A stretch of DNA of 64,000 nucleotides from Scyliorhinus canicula (Eukaryota). The position numbers and the translations under genes were made by a program. The DNA lies in the NCBI RefSeq assembly GCF_902713615.1, contig NC_052166.1, forward strand, positions 66,178,406-66,242,405, given 5' to 3'. Under the pieces are notes generated by a model. It had not been told where the DNA came from, did not search any database, and saw only the letters and a program-made list of their open reading frames with translations. The number at the start of each line of letters is the position of its first letter. Positions within the stretch are counted from its first letter, which is position 1. Shown piece by piece: positions 8,076-28,941 of this stretch.

Positions 8076-9622
8076 CTGTAATTTGCCAGATCACATGGTG
8101 TACAAGACAAACCCATTCCTCTGGCCCCCAAATTTTTTTTTGCTATACTTGCATCTAAACCGACTTCCCTTTTCAGCCGTAACATGCTATGTAGTCGCAT
8201 CAGTACTCAGCCTCAAATTCTCGCTCCACAAATGCATGTTTTATTTACCTCATAACTTGGCACAAGGGTTCGAGCAAGTGATACAGACTGTGCTGTGGAC
8301 ACACGTGGGAGTCTCAGACATGCCTGCACAGAGCAGACCCTAGAATTAGGACACGGGTCTCAAACTGGTCTCAAACTAAAAGTTGCAACATTTGCCAACT
8401 CAGTAAATAACTGCTGCAGCAAGGGAATTCAGTGGAAGTGAAAATCTGGTGTAAGGATGGAAGGTGCAATCTACCGTGAAAAAGATGCATCTTGACGACA
8501 GGGACCAGTCACTGGCCTGATTTTGAGAATCTTTTATTGAAATGGTTACACCGTCACTAGAAATGCAATGCTCACTCAAAAGCCAAATCCAACCCCCAGT
8601 CCAGCAAATATTTCAGAACTACGGTTAGTTGGTGTAGCTAATTTATGGAACCAAAGTTGTTGTGGCAGAAGACCAAAATCGGTCAGACTACCAAAAGACC
8701 TTGGTGCCAAAGTTGCCAGTTCCCAGCGATTCATCATTAGTAGCAAAGAACACAAGTACCCACACCAACAACTTGAATTTCAATAGGCCCAGCAATCGAA
8801 CTGTGGAGTTGAAACGTTTGAAAACAGTTCTAGTGAAATCTGCAGGACACGAGAAGACCAGATTCATGGTGGCGCTAGCCTCCATGGCCAAAGGAATGAA
8901 ATTCAAGCCTATGGTCATTTTCAAACTTAAACCATGCCAAAAAATCAAATTCTCAGTATAGGTTTTGCGCATGTCCATGACAGGTTGGGTGGATAAGGAT
9001 AAAGGGAGGTTATGTATTTATAATGTGTACAATAGGCTGCCCAGTGGCCTGCGTGAAGAGTTTAGTTTATTATTGTTGTGGGACATGTCCAGATCCCACT
9101 GACGAGATCAAGAGTTGCCTGCAGAGAAATAACACCTAAATTGAAGTTCTGCCAATGGGTCTAATATCCATAGCTCAGCCTTCAAATTGTTTTTTATGCA
9201 TGCATCCAAGGGACATGCACACACTGAATGAAGGTGGATGGTTGACAGAATAATTATCTGTCGTCAGATCGTTCAAAAAAATGTGGGACGTCCAATTCAT
9301 TGGATGGCGAGAAGGATGATTCTGATCCAGAGTGGGCTCCGTACAGTCATGTCACAGATAAAGTGACTCAATGAACTCTTGCATCGAACGCTGGAGACTA
9401 TGAATTTGCTAGTTTCTTAAAAAAGCTTTCATTGTTGTTAAAAGTATCTTTGTACATATAATTTATTCAATAAACAGTGCCACATTAATTATGAATGATC
9501 AGAGTTAAATTTTCTTTTCAAATTTCAAAATGGCAATTTCCCACACTGGCGATTTATAATTTAACCCATTTGCACCCGTTTTGGAACACCTTTTGGAGAC
9601 TTACACGCAGACATCTACGGTA
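8076..9622 (+). mobile_element. Degenerate pogo/Tigger-like DNA transposon
   Basis: Peptide FNRPSNRTVELKRLKTVLVKSAGHEKTRFMVALASMAKGMKFKPMVIFK and an LLWDMSRSH-like motif. Right end …GACTTACACGCAGACATCTACGGTA resembles pogo termini. Left boundary is approximate. Confidence 0.8.
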
Positions 9623-10756: not shown

Positions 10757-10944
10757 TCAAGTACTGCGGTCCTGGGAATCTGTTGGCGCCGTTGCATCTA
10801 TTTGCTGCTGCCTGAATTCCATCCTCACCTGGCGATTTGACTCTAGCAGTTCATGAAGTTTCGCATTCAGGGTATCGTTCTTCTCCTCAAGGTTGTCCAG
10901 GCAAGAGTTGATTTGGTCAAGCATCAGATTTAGTGCAGCATATT
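10757..10944 (-). CDS. BBLN: Bublin coiled-coil protein (C9orf16), coding exon 2: EYAALNLMLDQINSCLDNLEEKNDTLNAKLHELLESNRQVRMEFRQQQ...*; total 85 aa
   Basis: Polypyrimidine tract + CAG acceptor ending at 10945. The peptide closely matches the conserved EYAAINSMLDQINSCLDHLEEKND core of human BBLN. TGA at 10759-10757. Confidence 0.93.
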
Positions 10945-11377
10945 CTGCCAAGAAGGGGAGGTGTGGGAAGTGAGGTGAAGAATACAAGATTTAACTGTCA
11001 GCAGAATAAGTTACAGAAAAAAAGGAATATATTTGTGGCGACTAAGGTGACAATTTTAGTGTGACCACTTAAGGGGTCTCACCAGTCTCATTGACAACAG
11101 AAATAATCTTAGGACATCCCAAAACAACTTACATCAAATTAAGTCACAGAGCAACTTATGGGACAGAAGGAGACCATTCAACCCATTGAGCCTATGCTAA
11201 CTCCATAGAGCAATCCAGTCAGTCCCACTCCCCGGCTCAATCCCAGTAGCCCTGGAGCAGTGGCGTGCAGAGGTCTGGTGATGCCCGGGGCAAATCTTGA
11301 TTATATGCCCCAAAGACTCAAGTATAAGGCCTAATATACTGAGAAATATTATGAGAAAGGAAAACATTTTGAATATA

Positions 11378-12457
11378 GATTTTTTTTTAAAATAATTTTT
11401 ATTGAAAAATTGAATTTATGCAACAATAACGCACCATAGTAAAATACCAAAAATAACAATAATATTAACAATCATAAACATTCACCTCACCTCCATGAAG
11501 ACAGCATTTTAACAACAACGCAAATTAACACAATATAAAGTTACAGAATAGACCCCACAATAAGGAACACTCCCCCCCCCCCCCCCCCCCCCGGGTTGCT
11601 GCTGCTATTGACCCAGTTACCTATCTCTGAGCCAGGAAGTCCAGAAAAGGCTGCCATCGTTTATAGAACCCTTGTATTGATCCTATCAGGGCAAATATGA
11701 CCCTTTCCAATTTTATAAATCCCGCCATATCACTGATCCAGGTCTCCACACTTGGGGGCCTTGCATCCTTCCACTGTAGCAGAATCCTTCGGCGGGCTAC
11801 TAGGGACGCAAAGGCCAGGACACCGGCCTCTTTCGCCTCCTGCACTCCCGGCTCTACTGCAACTCCAAAAATCGCGAGTCCCCACCCTGGTTTGACCCTG
11901 GATCCAACCACCCTCGATACCGTCCCCGCCACCCCCTTCCAGAATTCTTCCAGTGCTGGGCATGCCCAGAACATATGGGCGTGGTTCGCTGGACTCCCCG
12001 AACATCTGGTGCACCTGTCCTCACCCCCAAAGAACCTACTCATCCTAGTCCCGGACATGTGGGCCCGGTGCAGCACCTTAAATTGGATGAGGCTAAGCCT
12101 CGCACATGAGGAGGAAGAGTTGACTCTCTCCAAGGCATCCGCCCAAGTCCCGTCCTCTATCTGCTCCCCGAGTTCCTCCTCCCATTTAGTCTTCAGCTCC
12201 TCCACTGACGCATCCTCCACCTCCTGCATTACCTTATAGATGTCAGACACCTTCCCCTCTCCGACCCACACCCCCGAAAGCACTCTGTCCATCGTCCCCT
12301 GCGAGGGCAGCATAGGGAATCCCTCTACCTGTCGCCTAGCAAACGCCTTTACCTGCAAGTATCTGAACATGTTCCCTTGGGGAAGGCCAAATTTATCTTC
12401 CAGTTCCCCCAGGCCCGCAAACCTCCCGCCAATAAACAGGTCCCTCAATTTGCTGAT
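11378..12457 (-). mobile_element. 5'-truncated L1-clade LINE nested in the hAT element (ORF2 C-terminus with CCHC finger, G-tract 3'UTR, AATAAA/A-rich tail)
   Basis: 15-bp TSD AACATTTTGAATATA at 11363-11377 and 12458-12472. The open frame to 11621 contains LIQFKVLHR, CTRC…HMFWACP and ILLQWK motifs. Confidence 0.92.
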
Positions 12458-12535
12458 AACATTTTGAATATATAAACACAGATGAAACATGAAATAAACG
12501 CTTTATTCGATTTTAATATAAATCAATCAAATTTA

Positions 12536-15064
12536 TTAAGTTCTTTTCCCCAAATGATACCTCCCGTCACAAAACACCTGAACTACTTCACTTTTTACAT
12601 CAGCTGTGAGAAATTCTTTTTCAATGCTTATTAAAGCCAGGTTGGTCAGTCGCTCCTGTGACATAGAAGACCTCAGATATGTTTTTATTAATTTCAGTTT
12701 TGAAAATGACCTTTCACAGCTTGCGACTGAAAATGCGATTGTAAGCAGTAATCTGTATGAAACACACAGCGTCGGAAAGACATCCCTCCCATACTGTAGT
12801 AAAGACTCCAGAGCATCTTTAGGATCAGGGGGAACTCTATTCCCTCCAGCTCGAAGGAGCATCACAAAATCAATAATTTCGTCATATAACTGAATTGCAA
12901 CCACATCATTGTCATAATAATTTGCAAAGTCTGAACATTCCTTTTTTAATTTCTCTCTTTCTTGTTCATCTTCAATCACTACTGAATTCAAGTTCAGAAG
13001 AAAAGAAAATCGGTCACTGAGTCTTTGAAGGCGGACACTGCGGTCTTCAATTTCAGTTTTTAATCTGTTCACAATCTCTACCATTACTCTATTCATTTCT
13101 TCTTGTGCCGTCAGTCCACTATCTCTTGCTGACTCTCCAGGCATTATTCTTCTTCTCCTTGTTCGTGCAATTGGTATTCCCCAATTTTCACAATATTCAT
13201 TGGCTAAATCTATTGCATTGTGGATAATTTCATCATTCTTCAAATTCAAGATATGAATAAGTCCTCTCAGATCACAAGAAGCTTCATGGAACCCCATTTT
13301 CGGATCCTGCAAACGTTTTGAGACTTCCTCCACTGATGATAAAACTGAGTACCAAAAATTTAATAAAGCTATAAACGGGAACTGTTGAATAGAGTTCAGT
13401 AGGAATCCTGCATCAGATTTAGTTTCCCTTGAAAATTCTCCTTCCAGCAGGTGTTGAAGGCTTGCAATAATGTTGTCACACTCTTCGTGGATTACTTGCA
13501 CAGCATCATGGCTGGAACTCCATCTTGTGTCACACTGTCTTTTCACAGTCCGAGTGACAAATGATTTTAACACTTCCCAACGAGAAGTAGATGAAGAAAA
13601 AAAAGTAAAGAGTTTTTCTAGAATGCCAAAAAATGTAACAACAACAGGTTGCACCTCACTTGCATGGACACAGACCAAATTGAGGCTGTGGTTCTCGCAG
13701 TTCACAAACACAGCTTTTGGGTTAACTTCAAGAATTTTTTGTTGAACACCTCCTCTCACTCCAGCCATAACTGCGGAGTTATCATATGCTTGACCACGAC
13801 AGTCATTCATGGAAATTTTGTCTTCTTCCAATTTTTCCTGAATTTTATTTACCAGGCTGACTGCATCTTCCTTGTTGACTTGAAAAAATCCCAGAAATGT
13901 CTCCTTTATTTCTACTTTTCTGTTTTCATCAATATGAACGTAACGCAGAATTTCAGAAACCTGATCTTCATGGGCAATATCTGGAGTTGAATCCAGCATT
14001 ATGCTAAAATATTTTGCGTCCTTAATTTCGGAAATTATATTTTTCTTGACAGTTTCACCAAGAAGATTGATTATTTTGTTTTGAATTCTGTTGGGCAAGT
14101 AGGTGACACTTTTTGGTTTCTCTTTCCCTCTCTGCAAGTGTTTTGCTAAGATGTCATCATATTTGGCCAAAAGTCTGATTGTTGCTAGAAAGTTTCCTGT
14201 ATTTTCACTGACTGTCTCCCCTGGCTCTGATAACCCAGATATTCCTTCTCCTCGATGTCCACGATAGGCCAGATTCTGTTTTGCCAGAAAGGATATAACC
14301 TCGACAATCCGTTCAGTTATAGCTTTCCATCTTTTCTTTTCAGCAGACATTTGCTGTTGAAGTTCAGCATCTTTCGTAGTTAAATGATGGAGTCGAACTA
14401 CGAGGTTCAGGTATTCCCTCATGTGAGCTCTATGAGAAGGGCTTTTCTCATGGTCAGGTATTCTTGGATTTAATTTTCTCCAAGTGGAGAAACCGTCTTC
14501 CTTTCCAAAGTTTGACACAGACGACAAATGTTCCTTTGAAAACAAAAAGCAAACAAAACAGTAGCATGCTTTCCGATATGGAGAGTATAACAACCATTTT
14601 CTCTCCACAATTTCTCCGTTTGTGGAAACTTTATCAAACCACTGTTTGGAAAATGATCTCCCATCCTTCTCAGCAAATGGACCACTTTTATTCTGATATC
14701 TTTCAGGGCCATGTTGTAATATTGTCATCTTCAAATGATCTGGAATCGGTTTCGTCAAACAGCCAAAATCGCTTCTTTGCAAAAATATGCTAAAATCTTC
14801 TTTATTTTCTTCACATGGATCATCATCCTGACAACGAGACTGAGGAGAGAGAGTATTATGTTCTGACCGAGCTGAATCCGTATCAGAAAAATCCTTCTCT
14901 GCACCCACATCATCTTTTACTTCTCCAGGTTCTCCTACTTCTTCTTTACTTCTTTTTATCCATGCATCTAATGCCCCTCTTTGATGGGACTCTTCTTCGA
15001 CTCTGGCCCTCTTTTTTTTCCTGTTCTGTACTCCACTCGGTTGTACACGAAATACTCGTAACAT
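12536..15064 (-). CDS. hAT transposase, 842 aa (TTF-type Zn finger, DUF4371-like region, DDE core, C-terminal hAT dimerisation domain)
   Basis: Uninterrupted ORF. Basic NLS-like RKKKRAR; WLLYS…CYCFVC…HEKSPSH; YFSIMLDSTPD (D1); GQAYDNS (D2); CENH (CxxH); DTRW; SVASCERSFSKLKLIKTYLRSSMSQERL (E). Confidence 0.95.
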   Translation of the reverse strand: MLRVFRVQPSGVQNRKKKRARVEEESHQRGALDAWIKRSKEEVGEPGEVKDDVGAEKDFSDTDSARSEHNTLSPQSRCQDDDPCEENKEDFSIFLQRSDFGCLTKPIPDHLKMTILQHGPERYQNKSGPFAEKDGRSFSKQWFDKVSTNGEIVERKWLLYSPYRKACYCFVCFLFSKEHLSSVSNFGKEDGFSTWRKLNPRIPDHEKSPSHRAHMREYLNLVVRLHHLTTKDAELQQQMSAEKKRWKAITERIVEVISFLAKQNLAYRGHRGEGISGLSEPGETVSENTGNFLATIRLLAKYDDILAKHLQRGKEKPKSVTYLPNRIQNKIINLLGETVKKNIISEIKDAKYFSIMLDSTPDIAHEDQVSEILRYVHIDENRKVEIKETFLGFFQVNKEDAVSLVNKIQEKLEEDKISMNDCRGQAYDNSAVMAGVRGGVQQKILEVNPKAVFVNCENHSLNLVCVHASEVQPVVVTFFGILEKLFTFFSSSTSRWEVLKSFVTRTVKRQCDTRWSSSHDAVQVIHEECDNIIASLQHLLEGEFSRETKSDAGFLLNSIQQFPFIALLNFWYSVLSSVEEVSKRLQDPKMGFHEASCDLRGLIHILNLKNDEIIHNAIDLANEYCENWGIPIARTRRRRIMPGESARDSGLTAQEEMNRVMVEIVNRLKTEIEDRSVRLQRLSDRFSFLLNLNSVVIEDEQEREKLKKECSDFANYYDNDVVAIQLYDEIIDFVMLLRAGGNRVPPDPKDALESLLQYGRDVFPTLCVSYRLLLTIAFSVASCERSFSKLKLIKTYLRSSMSQERLTNLALISIEKEFLTADVKSEVVQVFCDGRYHLGKRT

Positions 15065-16722
15065 TTCATTTTCTATCTCAAAAAAATGGGAAGAAAATGG
15101 TAAACAATCGGTCAGTTGCAGACGGATAAACCATATTTAATTTCTTTGTTCCTCCTCTGCAACCCCCATGGAGAAGGATAAGAGCAGCAACGTCATGGAA
15201 ATACTGTTATGACCCTTGTGGAAACAAACTACAAACAACCCAACTAAGACCAATATATAAGACTTCACTTTTATATTAGCAATCACACCAAAATCAACGT
15301 AAATTAAACATGAATTAACAAGAAAATTGCAATAATATGACCGATAAATTACACATAGCAGATACAAAGACATATCTCACACATTTCTCAGTCAGCCCAT
15401 TCAGCACGTATCGCATTCATTTCAGCCACAATATCCTTCAAAACGTTGAACTTCTTCAAATCAAATTCCATCTTCATTTCTCTAAAGCTTTAGCACCAAG
15501 TCTCATCAAACACCGGCATTACTTCACCCAATTTCCACAAATATAATTTTCACAATCGACACATTTCCAGATCCCTTTCGCCTCTTCTGGATCCAACCTT
15601 CTTTGTCTACTTTGCCAGCTATGCTATAGCTTCCATCTCTTCTTCTTCACAAAACCCTGGTCATGTGGGGCCTGTTTTTGCACTATGCCAGTGCATAAAG
15701 GGTCCCCAAATCCAGATATAAAAGCTCTGTTCAAGATCCGAGCTCCAGCAGCTTGCAGTCGTCTATGAGAATCTCCCATTTATAGGACCCGGGGCTTTAA
15801 GTATAAAGGGTAAGAGGGCAAAAGTTAAGAGGCCATGATGAATCTTTATAAAATACTGGCTCTGTCCCAAATGGGTGCCCCAAATGTCAAATTCTGGGCA
15901 CGACAGTTTAGTAAGTTGACAGCTATAGAGAGGGTGCAGAGAAGAGTTTTAAAATGGATCTAAAGATAAAGAATAAAGAAAACGCACCCAGGGTGGCATT
16001 GCCGTCGATTCGGGAGAATTCGCGCCCTTTCTGTTCCCGCTCCAGCCGCCGAGTGGAAAGCCGCCTCTTCACCAGCAGCGACCGCGGTGCGCAGGCGCGC
16101 TCCGGCCGTCCGCGGTGCGCAGGCGCGATCCATTCTCTGATTGAATGCCCCCATCCAATGGATGCCCGGGGCCAACGCACTGTCGGCCCCCCCCTCTGCA
16201 CGCCACTGCCCTGGAGGTTTATTGTATTCAAGTGTCCATCTAATTTCCTTTTGAAATTACTGTTTCCACTTGCACCAGGCTCATGGGCAATGGGTTCTAA
16301 ATCATTACCATTCACTCTTCCTCACATTACCCTGCATTACTTGCCCAAAACCTTAAACCTGTGTCGCCTAGTCTTAGTATCATCAGCTAATAGCCAGTTT
16401 ACCCTCGCCTACCTTATCCAACCTGACATAATCTTGTATATCTCTATCAATTCACCCTCCCCCCATCTCCAAAGAGAAGAATCCTAACTTTTCCGCACAA
16501 CTTTGTAACTAAAGTTCCCCCATTCCTGGAAACATCCTGGTAAATCTCTTCTGTAAATCTCGTTTTAAAACACGGTCACCATTGTAATGCAGCAACTTTG
16601 CACCCAGCAAGATCCCACAAATATGTGATGTTAATTATTGACTGGATATTGGGGATAACAGCACAGTTCGTCTTCGATGGCAGGTGGGGTGAAGGTTTAA
16701 ATTTCTCAACTGTAGAATGGCA

Positions 16723-17634
16723 CCTCTGACAGTGCTGCACTCCCTCAGTACTGACCCTCTGACAGTGCTGCACTCCCTCAGTACTGACCCTCTGACAGTG
16801 CTGCACTCCCTCAGTACTGACCCTCTGACAGTGCGGCACTCCCTCAGTACTGTCCCTCTGACAGTGCGGCACTCCCTCAGTACTGACCCTCTGACAGTGC
16901 GGCACTCCCTCAGTACTGACCCTCTGACAGTGCGGCACTCCCTCAGTACTGACCCTCTGACAGTGCGGCACTCCCTCAGTACTGACCTTCTGACAGTGCA
17001 GCACTCCCTCAGTACTGACCTTCTGACAGTGCAGCACTCCCTCAGTACTGACCCTCTGACAGTGCGGCACTCCCTCAGTACTGACCCTCTGACAGTGCAG
17101 CACTCCCTCAGTACTGACCCTCTGACAGTGCAGCACTCCCTCAGTACTGACCCTCTGACAGTGCAGCACTCCCTCAGTACTGACCCTCTGACAGTGCAGC
17201 ACTCCCTCAGTACTGACCCTCTGACAGTGCAGCACTCCCTCAGTACTGACCCTCTGACAGTGCAGCACTCTCTCAGTACTGACCCTCTGACAGTGCAGCA
17301 CTCCCTCAGTACTGACCCTCTGACGGTGCAGCACTCCCTCAGTACTGACCCTCTGACAGTACTGCACTCCCTCAGTACTGACCCTCTGACGGTGCAGCAC
17401 TCCCTCAGTACTGACCCTGTGGCAGTGCAGCACTCCCTCAGTACTGACCCTCTGACAGTGCAGCGCTCCCTCAGTACTGACCCTCTGACAGTGCGGCACT
17501 CCCTCAGTACTGACCCTCTGACAGTGCAGCACTCCCTCAGTACTGACCCTCCACAATGCAGCACTCCCTCAGTACTGACCCTCTGACAGTGCGGCACTCC
17601 CTCAGTACTGACCCTCTGACAGTGCGGCACTCCC
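16723..17634. repeat. 33-bp minisatellite, ~27.5 copies (CCTCTGACAGTGCAGCACTCCCTCAGTACTGAC)
   Basis: Directly visible tandem array; the ORF track shows 11-aa periodicity in several frames. Confidence 0.97.
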
Positions 17635-17734
17635 CCAGCTCCCAAGCCAAATGAAAATCTAATTCTACACTTGCCATCTCAGGGTCTGCTGGAGTAATCT
17701 AATGGAGCCCTGTCAAAGTGTCAAGCTGGACATA

Positions 17735-19612
17735 GGGGGGGGGGGGTCCTGTCAAGGTGTGGGTTTTGGGGGGGGGGGGGCTCTTGCCAAGGTGTTGGGT
17801 TGAGGGGGGTCCTGTCAAGGTGAGTGGTTGGGGGGGGGGGGGGGTCCTGCCATTGGGTTGGGGGGAGGGGGGGAGGTCCTGTCAAGGTGTTGGGATGGGG
17901 GGGGGTCCTGCCAATGTGTTGGATTGGGGGGGGGGATCCTGCCAAGGTGTTGGATTGGGGGGGGGGGGTCCTGCCAAGCTGTTGGGTTGGGGGGGGGGGT
18001 CCTGCCAAGGTGTTGGGTTGAGTGGGGGGGAAGGGCTGCCAAGGTGTTGGGTTGAGTGGGGGGGGGGGGGGCTGCCAAGGTGTTGGGTTGGGGGGGTCCT
18101 GTTAAGGTGTTGGGTTGGGTTGGGTGGGGGGTCCTGCCAAGGTGTTGGGTTGGGGGCGGGTTCCTGCCAAGGTGTTGGGTTGGGGGGGGGGGGGGGGTCC
18201 TGCCAAGGTGTTGGGTTGGGGGGGGCTGTTAAGGTGTTGGGTTGGGGGTGCGATCCTGCCAAGGTGTTGGGTTGGGGGGGTCCTGTTAAGGTGTTGGGTT
18301 GGGTTGGGTGGGGGGTCCTGCCAAGGTGTTGGGCTGGGGGGGGTCCTGTTAAGGTGTTTGGGGGGGGGGGGGGGGGGTTTCCTGCCAAGGTGGGTTGGCG
18401 GGGTCCTGTTAAGGTGTTGGGTTGAGGGGGGATCTTGCCAATGTGTTGGGCTGGGGGTGGGGGTCCTGTTAAGGTGCTGGGTTGGGTTGGGGGGGTCCTG
18501 CCAAGGTGTTAGGTTGGGGGGGGGGGGGGTCCTGCCAAGGTGTTGGGTTGGGGGGGGTCCTGCAGTGTTGGGTTGGGGGGGGGGTCCTGCCAAGGTGTTG
18601 GGTAGGGGGGGGGGGTCCTGCCAAGGTGTTGGGTTGGGGGGGGGGGGTCCTGCCAAGGTGTTGGGTTGGGGGGGGGTCCTGCCAAAGTGTTGAATTGGGT
18701 TGGGGGGGTCCTGCCAAGGTGTTGGGTGGGGGGGGGGGGTCCTGCCAAGGTGTTGAATTGGGTTGGGGGGGTCCTGCCAAGGTGTTGGGTTGGGGGGGGG
18801 GGGGGGTCCTGCCAAGATGTTGGGTTGGGGGGGTCCTGCCAAGATGTTGGGTTGGGGGGGTCCTGCCAAGGTGTTGGGTTGGGGGGGGGGGGGGGTCCTG
18901 CCAATGTGTTGGGTTGGGGGGGGGGTCCTGCCAAGGTGTTGGGTTGGGTTGGGTTGGGGGGGGGGCTCCTGCCAAGGTGTTGGGTTGGGGGGGGGGGTCC
19001 TGCCAAGATGTTGGGTTGGGGGGGGGGGTCCTGCCAAGGTGTTGGGTTGGGGGGGGGGGGGTCCTGCCAAGGTGTTGGGTTGGGTTGGGTTGGGGGGGGC
19101 TCCTGCAAAGGTGTTAGGTTAGGGGGGGTCCTGCAGTGTTGGGTTGGGGGGGGGGTCCTGCCAAGGTGTTGGGTTGGGGAGGGGGGGGGTCCTGCCAAGG
19201 TGTTGGGTTGGGGGGGGGGTCCTGCAGTGTTGGGTTGGGGGGGGTCCTGCCAAGGTGTTGGGTAGGGGGGGGGTCCTGCCAAGGTGTTGGGTTGGGGGGG
19301 GGGGTCCTGCCAAGGTGTTGGGGTGGGGGGGGGGGGGGTCCTGCCAAGGTGTTGGGTTGGGGGGGGGGTCCTGCCAAGGTGTTGGGTTGGGGGGGGGGGG
19401 GTCCTGCCAAGGTGTTGGGTTGGGGGGGGGGTCCTGCCAAGGTGTTGGGTTGGGGGGTCCTGCCAAGGTGTTGGGTTGGGGGGGGGTCCTGCCAAGGTGT
19501 TGGGTTGGGGGGGGGGGGGGGGGGGTCCTGCAGTGTTGGGTTGGGGGGGGGGGGGGGGGTCCTGCAGTGTTGGGTTGGGGAGGGGGGGTCCTGCCAAGGT
19601 GTTGGGTTGGGT
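17735..19612. repeat. G-rich satellite, ~60 units of GTCCTGCCAAGGTGTTGGGTT(G)n
   Basis: Directly visible tandem array with variable G-run length. It ends ~57 bp from the BBLN exon-1 donor. Confidence 0.95.
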
Positions 19613-19669
19613 ATGGAGGGGGTGGGATCTGGAACAGGGGGTCGGCTGGATAGCCTCTGCCGGGTTTAC

Positions 19670-19739
19670 CTTCCTCGGGCATCACCTCCTCTTCCTCCAG
19701 GCCCGCGGTGACACTCGGCTCCCCGTTGGGCCCCGACAT
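19670..19739 (-). CDS. BBLN: Bublin coiled-coil protein (C9orf16), coding exon 1: MSGPNGEPSVTAGLEEEEVMPEE + phase-1 G
   Basis: ATG at 19739-19737 in gccATG context. The MSGPNG N-terminus matches vertebrate BBLN. The GTAAAC donor at 19669 is phase 1, matching exon 2. Confidence 0.9.

Positions 19740-28410: not shown

Positions 28411-28941
<531 letters not shown>

What the first reader, a model, noticed from the sequence alone, without database searches (positions are those of the whole stretch)
11250..16216. Structurally complete, young hAT transposon with an intact 842-aa transposase inside the BBLN intron
Seen: perfect 16-bp TIRs, a perfect 8-bp TSD (CCCTGGAG), an uninterrupted ORF with D-D-E, CxxH, TTF zinc finger and dimerisation motif, a polyA signal after the stop (12502-12507), and an undecayed CpG-rich 5' end. 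All other DNA/LTR transposons here are badly decayed. Known: 8-bp TSDs and these motifs define hAT elements of the Tip100/ZMYM1-like group. Inference: a recent insertion, possibly from an active or horizontally acquired family and possibly polymorphic. A few residues look off-consensus (YLPNRIQNK, RWSSS), so this copy may have begun to drift.
Basis: partly seen in the sequence, partly recalled or inferred. Interest (0 to 1): 0.72.

Follow-up and report, generated by a model that had tools for sequence, protein, structure and literature searches.

The report
Ageing hAT copy, likely transferred family
This is one damaged copy of a cut-and-paste jumping gene with over 1,200 ends in this genome, lying in an intron of the BBLN gene; a longer version about 99% identical occurs in other, unnamed organisms, so the family likely arrived by horizontal transfer.

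Summary
The hAT anatomy is real: 16-bp TIRs, 8-bp TSD, an open 842-aa frame with a Hermes-like fold, inside the BBLN intron. It is not structurally complete or special. It holds a nested 1,080-bp LINE fragment with a 15-bp TSD and lacks 431 bp that 29 of 29 other copies have. It also carries 9 amino-acid changes seen in none of them. The family has at least 1,234 exact 3' ends in G000, and private changes are neutral (omega 1.07), so it is mobile, not domesticated.

New: 561 copies share a junction at codon 7. Contigs from coded organisms C and D, 99% identical in the ORF, carry other sequence there; in D it is a splice acceptor and a start like that of close homologs. Two motifs from that sequence have 0 matches in G000. 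Named close relatives are invertebrates (Limulus 72%). Horizontal transfer is likely (about 0.55), but C and D are unidentified and polymorphism was not tested.

The parts
11250..11257 (.). target-site duplication, left copy (8 bp)
   Evidence: the flanks are two halves of an older repeat, adjacent in 11 of 14 other copies of that repeat
11258..11273 (-). 3' terminal inverted repeat (16 bp)
   Evidence: the 28-mer starting here has 1,234 exact matches in G000, control 0
11363..11377 (.). 15-bp TSD of the nested LINE, left copy
   Evidence: joint skipping 1,095 bases with 15 letters fitting either side
11378..12457 (-). nested 5'-truncated non-LTR retrotransposon: 3' end of its RT-type frame, 3' UTR and A-tail
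   Evidence: 289-aa frame 12490->11621; zf-RVT E 0.003, below the cut-off; 4,924 candidates, the 39 other scored ones 96-97% identical; 15 of 837 letters differ from the majority of 5 copies
12458..12472 (.). 15-bp TSD of the nested LINE, right copy
12502..12507 (-). AATAAA polyadenylation signal after the transposase stop
   Evidence: sequence; its use is not shown
12536..15064 (-). 842-aa hAT transposase frame; candidate D358, D428, E784, C456-x-x-H459, W515, zinc finger C169/C172/H205/H211; changes seen in no other copy include S324P and A430S
   Evidence: model matches Hermes, E 3e-9; residue roles assigned from recalled Hermes motifs
15044..15046 (-). junction shared by the genome's copies; the elements of organisms C and D have other sequence here (acceptor and start in D)
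   Evidence: 561 exact matches; loose ends in X11 and X15; their motifs 0 matches in G000
15153..15154 (.). site of a 431-bp deletion private to this copy
15154..16132 (-). subfamily-B 5' region, unrelated to the subfamily-A 5' region; includes the 28-bp GC-rich repeat at 16079-16131
   Evidence: 597 candidates in G000
16193..16208 (-). 5' terminal inverted repeat (16 bp)
16209..16216 (.). target-site duplication, right copy
10757..10944 (-). BBLN coding exon 2 (host gene)
   Evidence: PF03670 match E 5.5e-20, the only match in G000
19670..19739 (-). BBLN coding exon 1 (host gene); GT donor at 19669
   Evidence: the two exons give one open 85-aa product

Best explanation
This is one ageing copy of a cut-and-paste hAT transposon family with at least 1,234 ends in genome G000; it lies in the BBLN intron, carries a nested LINE fragment and a 431-bp deletion, is likely no longer a source of jumps, and its family likely entered this lineage by horizontal transfer. 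Steps. (1) Inferred from Hermes: a transposase binds the TIRs and subterminal DNA, cuts through a hairpin and inserts with an 8-bp stagger. (2) Shown: insertion here split an older repeat and left the 8-bp TSD. (3) Inferred: the founder had lost the end of the first intron and the native start by a deletion that kept an intronic ATG in frame; this form spread (561 exact junctions, shown). (4) Shown: two 5' types arose. A carries a host interspersed repeat; B has an unrelated 5' region. Copies with stops were moved later, likely in trans. (5) Shown: this copy took a LINE, lost 431 bp and drifted neutrally. (6) Inferred: BBLN still splices over it.
For: Copy number. Separate TSDs in 21 of 24 copies. 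Private changes 62 synonymous, 167 nonsynonymous, 19 stops, omega 1.07, the pattern reported for DNA transposons within a genome (PMC7070016, passages). Only 8 of 30 frames are intact; pairs 3-5 letters apart carry stops and have different TSDs. Fold matches Hermes in the top 10 rows. Transfer: a contig of organism C has 20 other letters in 2,531, and one of organism D has 23 in 2,536. All 16 listed ORF places are places where the window departs from the G000 majority, and X11 has the other letter at 15 of 16. C and D have other sequence at the junction, and C also at 16133; two motifs from it have 0 matches in G000 at one mismatch. Unnamed P0121 differs from the G000 majority at 7 of 836 residues. 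Named nearest relatives are Limulus (72%), Physella and Styela; the clade holding them has 100% SH-aLRT, and grouping with Mobula is rejected, p-AU 6e-99.
Against: Organisms C and D are coded and may be close relatives, in which case vertical descent with separate amplifications fits. Each rests on one study. Logan contigs of a repeat behave like a family consensus, which stays alike across descendants of one burst. Organism A, 8 letters in 497 from the window at BBLN exon 2, also holds the family, including subfamily B. The Mobula protein is a 282-aa piece of another hAT lineage, so the tree test says nothing about whether rays lack this one; one search is the quick tree without bootstrap. 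The frame is open with all candidate catalytic residues, so residual activity is not excluded. The 30 copies were chosen by likeness to this one (40 of 1,627 candidates scored, 30 fetched), which biases divergence low. A zero in G000 does not show absence from the species.
Confidence: 0.6

Rival explanations
1. Same decaying copy, but the family was inherited vertically among closely related sharks; C and D are relatives in which the longer ancestral form amplified separately.
For: Organism A shares the family and differs little at BBLN. Sharks mutate slowly, 7e-10 per base per generation in one species (PMC10587355, passages), so high identity can persist. X15 has short matches to the repeat around the insertion.
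Against: G000 has 0 matches to either motif of the longer form. All 22 A-type copies carry a host repeat that the X11 contig end lacks. No named shark or ray protein above 47% identity among the rows listed (120 of 174 and 120 of 395). Even here an older transfer from invertebrates stays likely.
Confidence: 0.3
2. This copy is a complete, very recent, autonomous and probably polymorphic element.
For: Perfect TIRs and TSD, open frame; it is one of 8 intact frames among 30. In one catshark species two assemblies are only 98.3% identical (PMC11979771, section 6), so an insertion with 0.55% private change could still segregate in a shark of such diversity.
Against: Nested LINE near the 3' end; in the related AnBuster, ends cut to 58-64 bp were nearly inactive while 126 bp worked (PMC12637253, passages), and 105 bp remain here before the insert. 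Also a 431-bp 5' deletion, 14 private substitutions, nearest copy 33 letters away, and S324P and A430S in nearly invariant columns.
Confidence: 0.07
3. The frame is a domesticated ZMYM1- or THAP12-like host gene kept by selection.
For: Open frame; homologs are often annotated 'zinc finger MYM-type protein 1-like'.
Against: More than 1,200 ends, separate TSDs, 16 nonsynonymous against 4 synonymous codon changes in this copy.
Confidence: 0.02

Closest known systems
Hermes transposase (hAT; PDB 4d1q, 2bw3, 8sjd, 8edg, 6dww)
   Same: Predicted fold matches, Foldseek E 3e-9 to 1e-7, top 10 rows; C-terminal hAT dimerisation family.
   Different: 15-17% identity, TM 0.31-0.33 by query, rmsd 9-12; no sequence hit in PDB at E 1, and only ribosomal-protein chance hits near E 1 with the profile; 842 aa.
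hAT Tip group (Tip100, BuT2; PMC3942097, passages)
   Same: 8-bp TSD, short TIRs, 2.5-5 kb size; relatives in plants, cnidarians and insects; internally deleted derivatives of 1.6-1.8 kb.
   Different: No named Tip reference was in hand, so placement in Tip rather than Ac or Buster is untested; linking DUF4371 to Tip is recalled.
'ZMYM1-like' proteins of Limulus polyphemus (P0023), Physella acuta (P0167), Styela clava (P0006, P0135)
   Same: 72%, 64% and 53-54% identity; one clade with the window protein.
   Different: Invertebrate hosts; the Limulus and Physella records are partial; the closest homologs start M-K-K/R-x-Q, the G000 copies do not.
Horizontally transferred vertebrate DNA transposons (975 events in 307 genomes; PMC7070016, passages)
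   Same: Neutral decay within the genome, high identity between hosts.
   Different: 93.7% of those events involve ray-finned fishes; the words shark, cartilaginous and Chondrichth- occur 0 times in its main text; supplements not read.

Membership tests
hAT superfamily | 8-bp target-site duplication | tested here: met
   21 of 24 other copies perfect
hAT superfamily | short TIRs (10-25 bp), element 2.5-5 kb (PMC3942097) | tested here: met
   16 bp; copies with both ends 3.6-4.3 kb, this one 4,951 bp with its LINE
hAT superfamily | C-terminal hAT dimerisation domain | tested here: met
   PF05699 44.8 bits against cut-off 21.4
hAT superfamily | RNase H-like DDE core with large helical insertion, CxxH and W | tested here: met
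   Hermes top fold hits; conserved D358, D428, C456/H459, W515, E784; residue-level match to Hermes recalled, and the loops are low-confidence in the model
hAT Tip group | clade with Tip100/BuT2 in a transposase tree | not tested
   no named reference sequence among fetched proteins
hAT Tip group | target-site preference distinct from Ac and Buster | not tested
   target-site composition was not computed
autonomous active element | intact subterminal regions | tested here: not met
   nested LINE and 431-bp deletion
autonomous active element | excision and integration activity | not testable with these tools
   needs a cell assay
domesticated hAT gene | single copy without TIRs, under purifying selection | tested here: not met
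horizontally transferred transposon | element divergence far below host-gene divergence | tested here: inconclusive
   element 99% alike in C and D; host-gene divergence of C and D not obtained
horizontally transferred transposon | patchy distribution or tree discordant with hosts | tested here: inconclusive
   nested among invertebrate-named proteins, but shark genomes could not be screened

The most novel reading that the evidence does not exclude
An almost unchanged hAT element moved recently between a shark lineage and unrelated animals (C, D and the sources of the 17-member P0121 cluster). In this lineage it multiplied past a thousand copies from a founder that had lost its native splice acceptor and start and used an intronic ATG, while the longer form stayed intact elsewhere and could be a working transposase.
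Probability: 0.3. Interest if true: 0.62.

Novelty: new member of a known kind. Interest (0 to 1): 0.37.

Why it matters
The copy itself is ordinary. The family is the useful part. If C or D is not a close relative, this is a very recent vertebrate transfer involving a cartilaginous fish, a group not named in the main text of the large survey read here. Natural intact proteins such as P0121 offer a candidate active hAT outside the groups mostly used as tools. The shared junction gives a natural test of whether an N-terminally altered transposase drove the amplification.

Tried and rejected
Parts without cover (no evidence either way): X11 (organism C) had depth 0 over BBLN exon 2 and almost none over the nested LINE, and X15 (organism D) had none over either; the tool warns that a filter drops records. 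No host-marker comparison for C, no raw RNA reads and no empty-site test in another individual were obtained.

No relative in viral contigs (9 pattern matches, 0 confirmed) or prokaryote genomes (46, 0 confirmed). Metagenome contigs gave 5 loci from 66 matches, all partial at 55-82%. PDB sequence searches gave nothing. Rfam gave 0 matches in L002 and L003. The source of the subfamily-B 5' region was not found: 1 weak match for the window's 5' part, none for L002's. The protein atlas only returned DUF4371/hAT clusters.

Rejected: RWSSS as drift (family-wide); the CpG-rich end as proof of youth (subfamily trait); the junction as a spliced intron (the known ends do not read as a GT-AG intron; sequence). 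Absolute dating was dropped: 14 of 2,529 at 7e-10 per generation gives about 8 million generations, with a tenfold interval and a rate from another species. Paper searches listed no title or abstract start describing this family; Repbase and Dfam could not be searched, so it may be catalogued there. Earlier scan notes: none on this DNA; one unrelated moss note.

Full report
Observation. The window has an identical 8-bp duplication at 11250-11257 and 16209-16216 around perfect 16-bp inverted repeats, an 842-aa frame on the minus strand with DUF4371 and the hAT dimerisation family, and AATAAA at 12502-12507. BBLN exon 2 is the only PF03670 match in G000. Exon 1 lies at 19670-19739, and the two give one 85-aa product with GT-AG ends. 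The element is therefore in the intron, in the sense direction, about 305 bases from the acceptor. The AlphaFold model (mean pLDDT 72.7) matches Hermes in the top 10 rows.

Bases 11378-12457 are a 5'-truncated LINE flanked by a 15-bp duplication. None of 29 other copies has it, and contigs of X1, X3 and X11 join across it. It belongs to a large family (4,924 candidates) and differs from the majority of 5 fetched copies at 15 of 837 letters, an upper bound on its own age. The copy also lacks 431 bp of the 5' region whose marker is in 29 of 29 other copies. Against the majority of those 29, the frame differs at 22 letters (0.87%): 16 nonsynonymous and 4 synonymous codons, with 9 residue changes in no other copy, among them S324P and A430S beside D428. 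Both columns are nearly invariant in 18 aligned proteins. RWSSS is shared by the family.

The family in G000. The 28-base 3' end has 1,234 exact matches, control 0. The DNA search had 1,627 candidates and scored 40; the 39 other than this copy matched the ORF at 98%. Thirty were fetched, the window's own included. Of 24 other copies with both ends in view, 21 have a perfect TSD of their own. Eight of 30 frames are intact. Private changes are neutral, omega 1.07. Twenty-two copies are type A, with a host interspersed repeat in the 5' region (74 matches to flanking DNA). Eight are type B, with an unrelated 5' region and a 28-bp repeat in 2-10 copies. Five pairs of type-A copies differ by only 3-5 letters, carry stops and have different TSDs, so movement went on after this copy landed, likely in trans. 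Internally deleted copies of 1.6-1.8 kb occur (3 of 11 loci had both ends in view, 2 with identical TSDs). These samples favour copies close to the query.

Outside G000. Nineteen runs from four coded organisms hold 0.75-0.79 of the ORF's words (A one study, B six, C one, D one). Four were laid. X3 (B) matches BBLN exon 2 with 2 differences in 296, and X1 (A) with 8 in 497; both contigs stop at the acceptor and run on, as splicing to exon 1 would give, though the letters were not shown. X11 (C) and X15 (D) have single contigs across the ORF with 20 and 23 other letters. In the listed places these are mostly the G000 majority letters. Both break from the window at 15045-15046. The X15 loose end reads as an acceptor followed by the start seen in P0121 and P0125. 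X11 continues from the other side with at least 88 further letters, and at 16133 it lacks the repeat that type A carries. Two motifs from this longer form have 0 matches in G000 at one mismatch, while the window-type junction has 561 exact matches and is seen in 30 of 30 fetched copies. Homologs at 53-83% start like the longer form, so the G000 form is likely the derived one, and the window's ATG likely comes from the old intron. P0121 differs from the G000 majority at 7 of 836 residues; its cluster has 17 members, 0 named.

Named relatives. The closest are Limulus (72%), Physella (64%) and Styela (53-54%); the best named cartilaginous fish is Mobula at 47%. In a quick tree of 36 chosen proteins the window protein lies inside a clade with the three invertebrates. 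Holding it with Mobula is rejected in an 18-protein tree. The rows were picked by me, named ones first, from the 281 proteins held, and distinct hAT lineages within a genome weaken the test.

Weighing. Mobile, neutrally decaying and not domesticated: about 0.95. This copy not a current source: about 0.85. Transfer of the near-identical element: about 0.55, because C and D are unnamed, their host genes could not be compared, and repeat contigs act as consensus sequences. Polymorphism and any effect on BBLN are open.

Literature seen. PMC3942097, PMC7070016, PMC10587355 and PMC12637253: passages. PMC11979771: passages and section 6; it reports DNA transposons as 6% of a catshark genome and declining in activity, and its supplementary repeat table, not read, may list this family. 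All other papers: search listings only. The Hermes mechanism and motif roles, the LINE label beyond the weak zf-RVT hit, and the DUF4371-Tip link are recalled.

Verdict. A real but damaged member of a known superfamily; a new family member with a plausible, unproven recent transfer. Interest 0.37.

Noticed in passing
window 16723-17638 and 17736-19611: Two long tandem arrays (33-bp unit, 27.8 copies; about 31-bp G-rich unit, 60 copies) fill much of the rest of the BBLN intron.
   Followed up: no
window 28411-28941 (+): A 177-codon open stretch resembling an exon of PTGES2 (name recalled), head to head with BBLN.
   Followed up: no
L003 element positions about 100-342 and 21 other type-A copies: A host SINE-like repeat inside the 5' region travels with the whole type-A subfamily.
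   Followed up: partly
window 15154-16132; L002 element positions 64-1228: The type-B 5' region may be captured host DNA; its source was not found.
   Followed up: partly
L009/L018, L003/L004, L019/L026/L027: Near-identical stop-bearing copies at different sites: the latest movement seen in the sample.
   Followed up: partly
L013: Flanks of this copy do not match as a TSD; possibly a rearrangement between copies.
   Followed up: no
window 8638-9017: A broken frame resembling a pogo-type DDE transposase (label recalled).
   Followed up: no
P0244: An hAT protein is deposited under a bacterial MAG name (Aquifex sp.), likely contamination.
   Followed up: no
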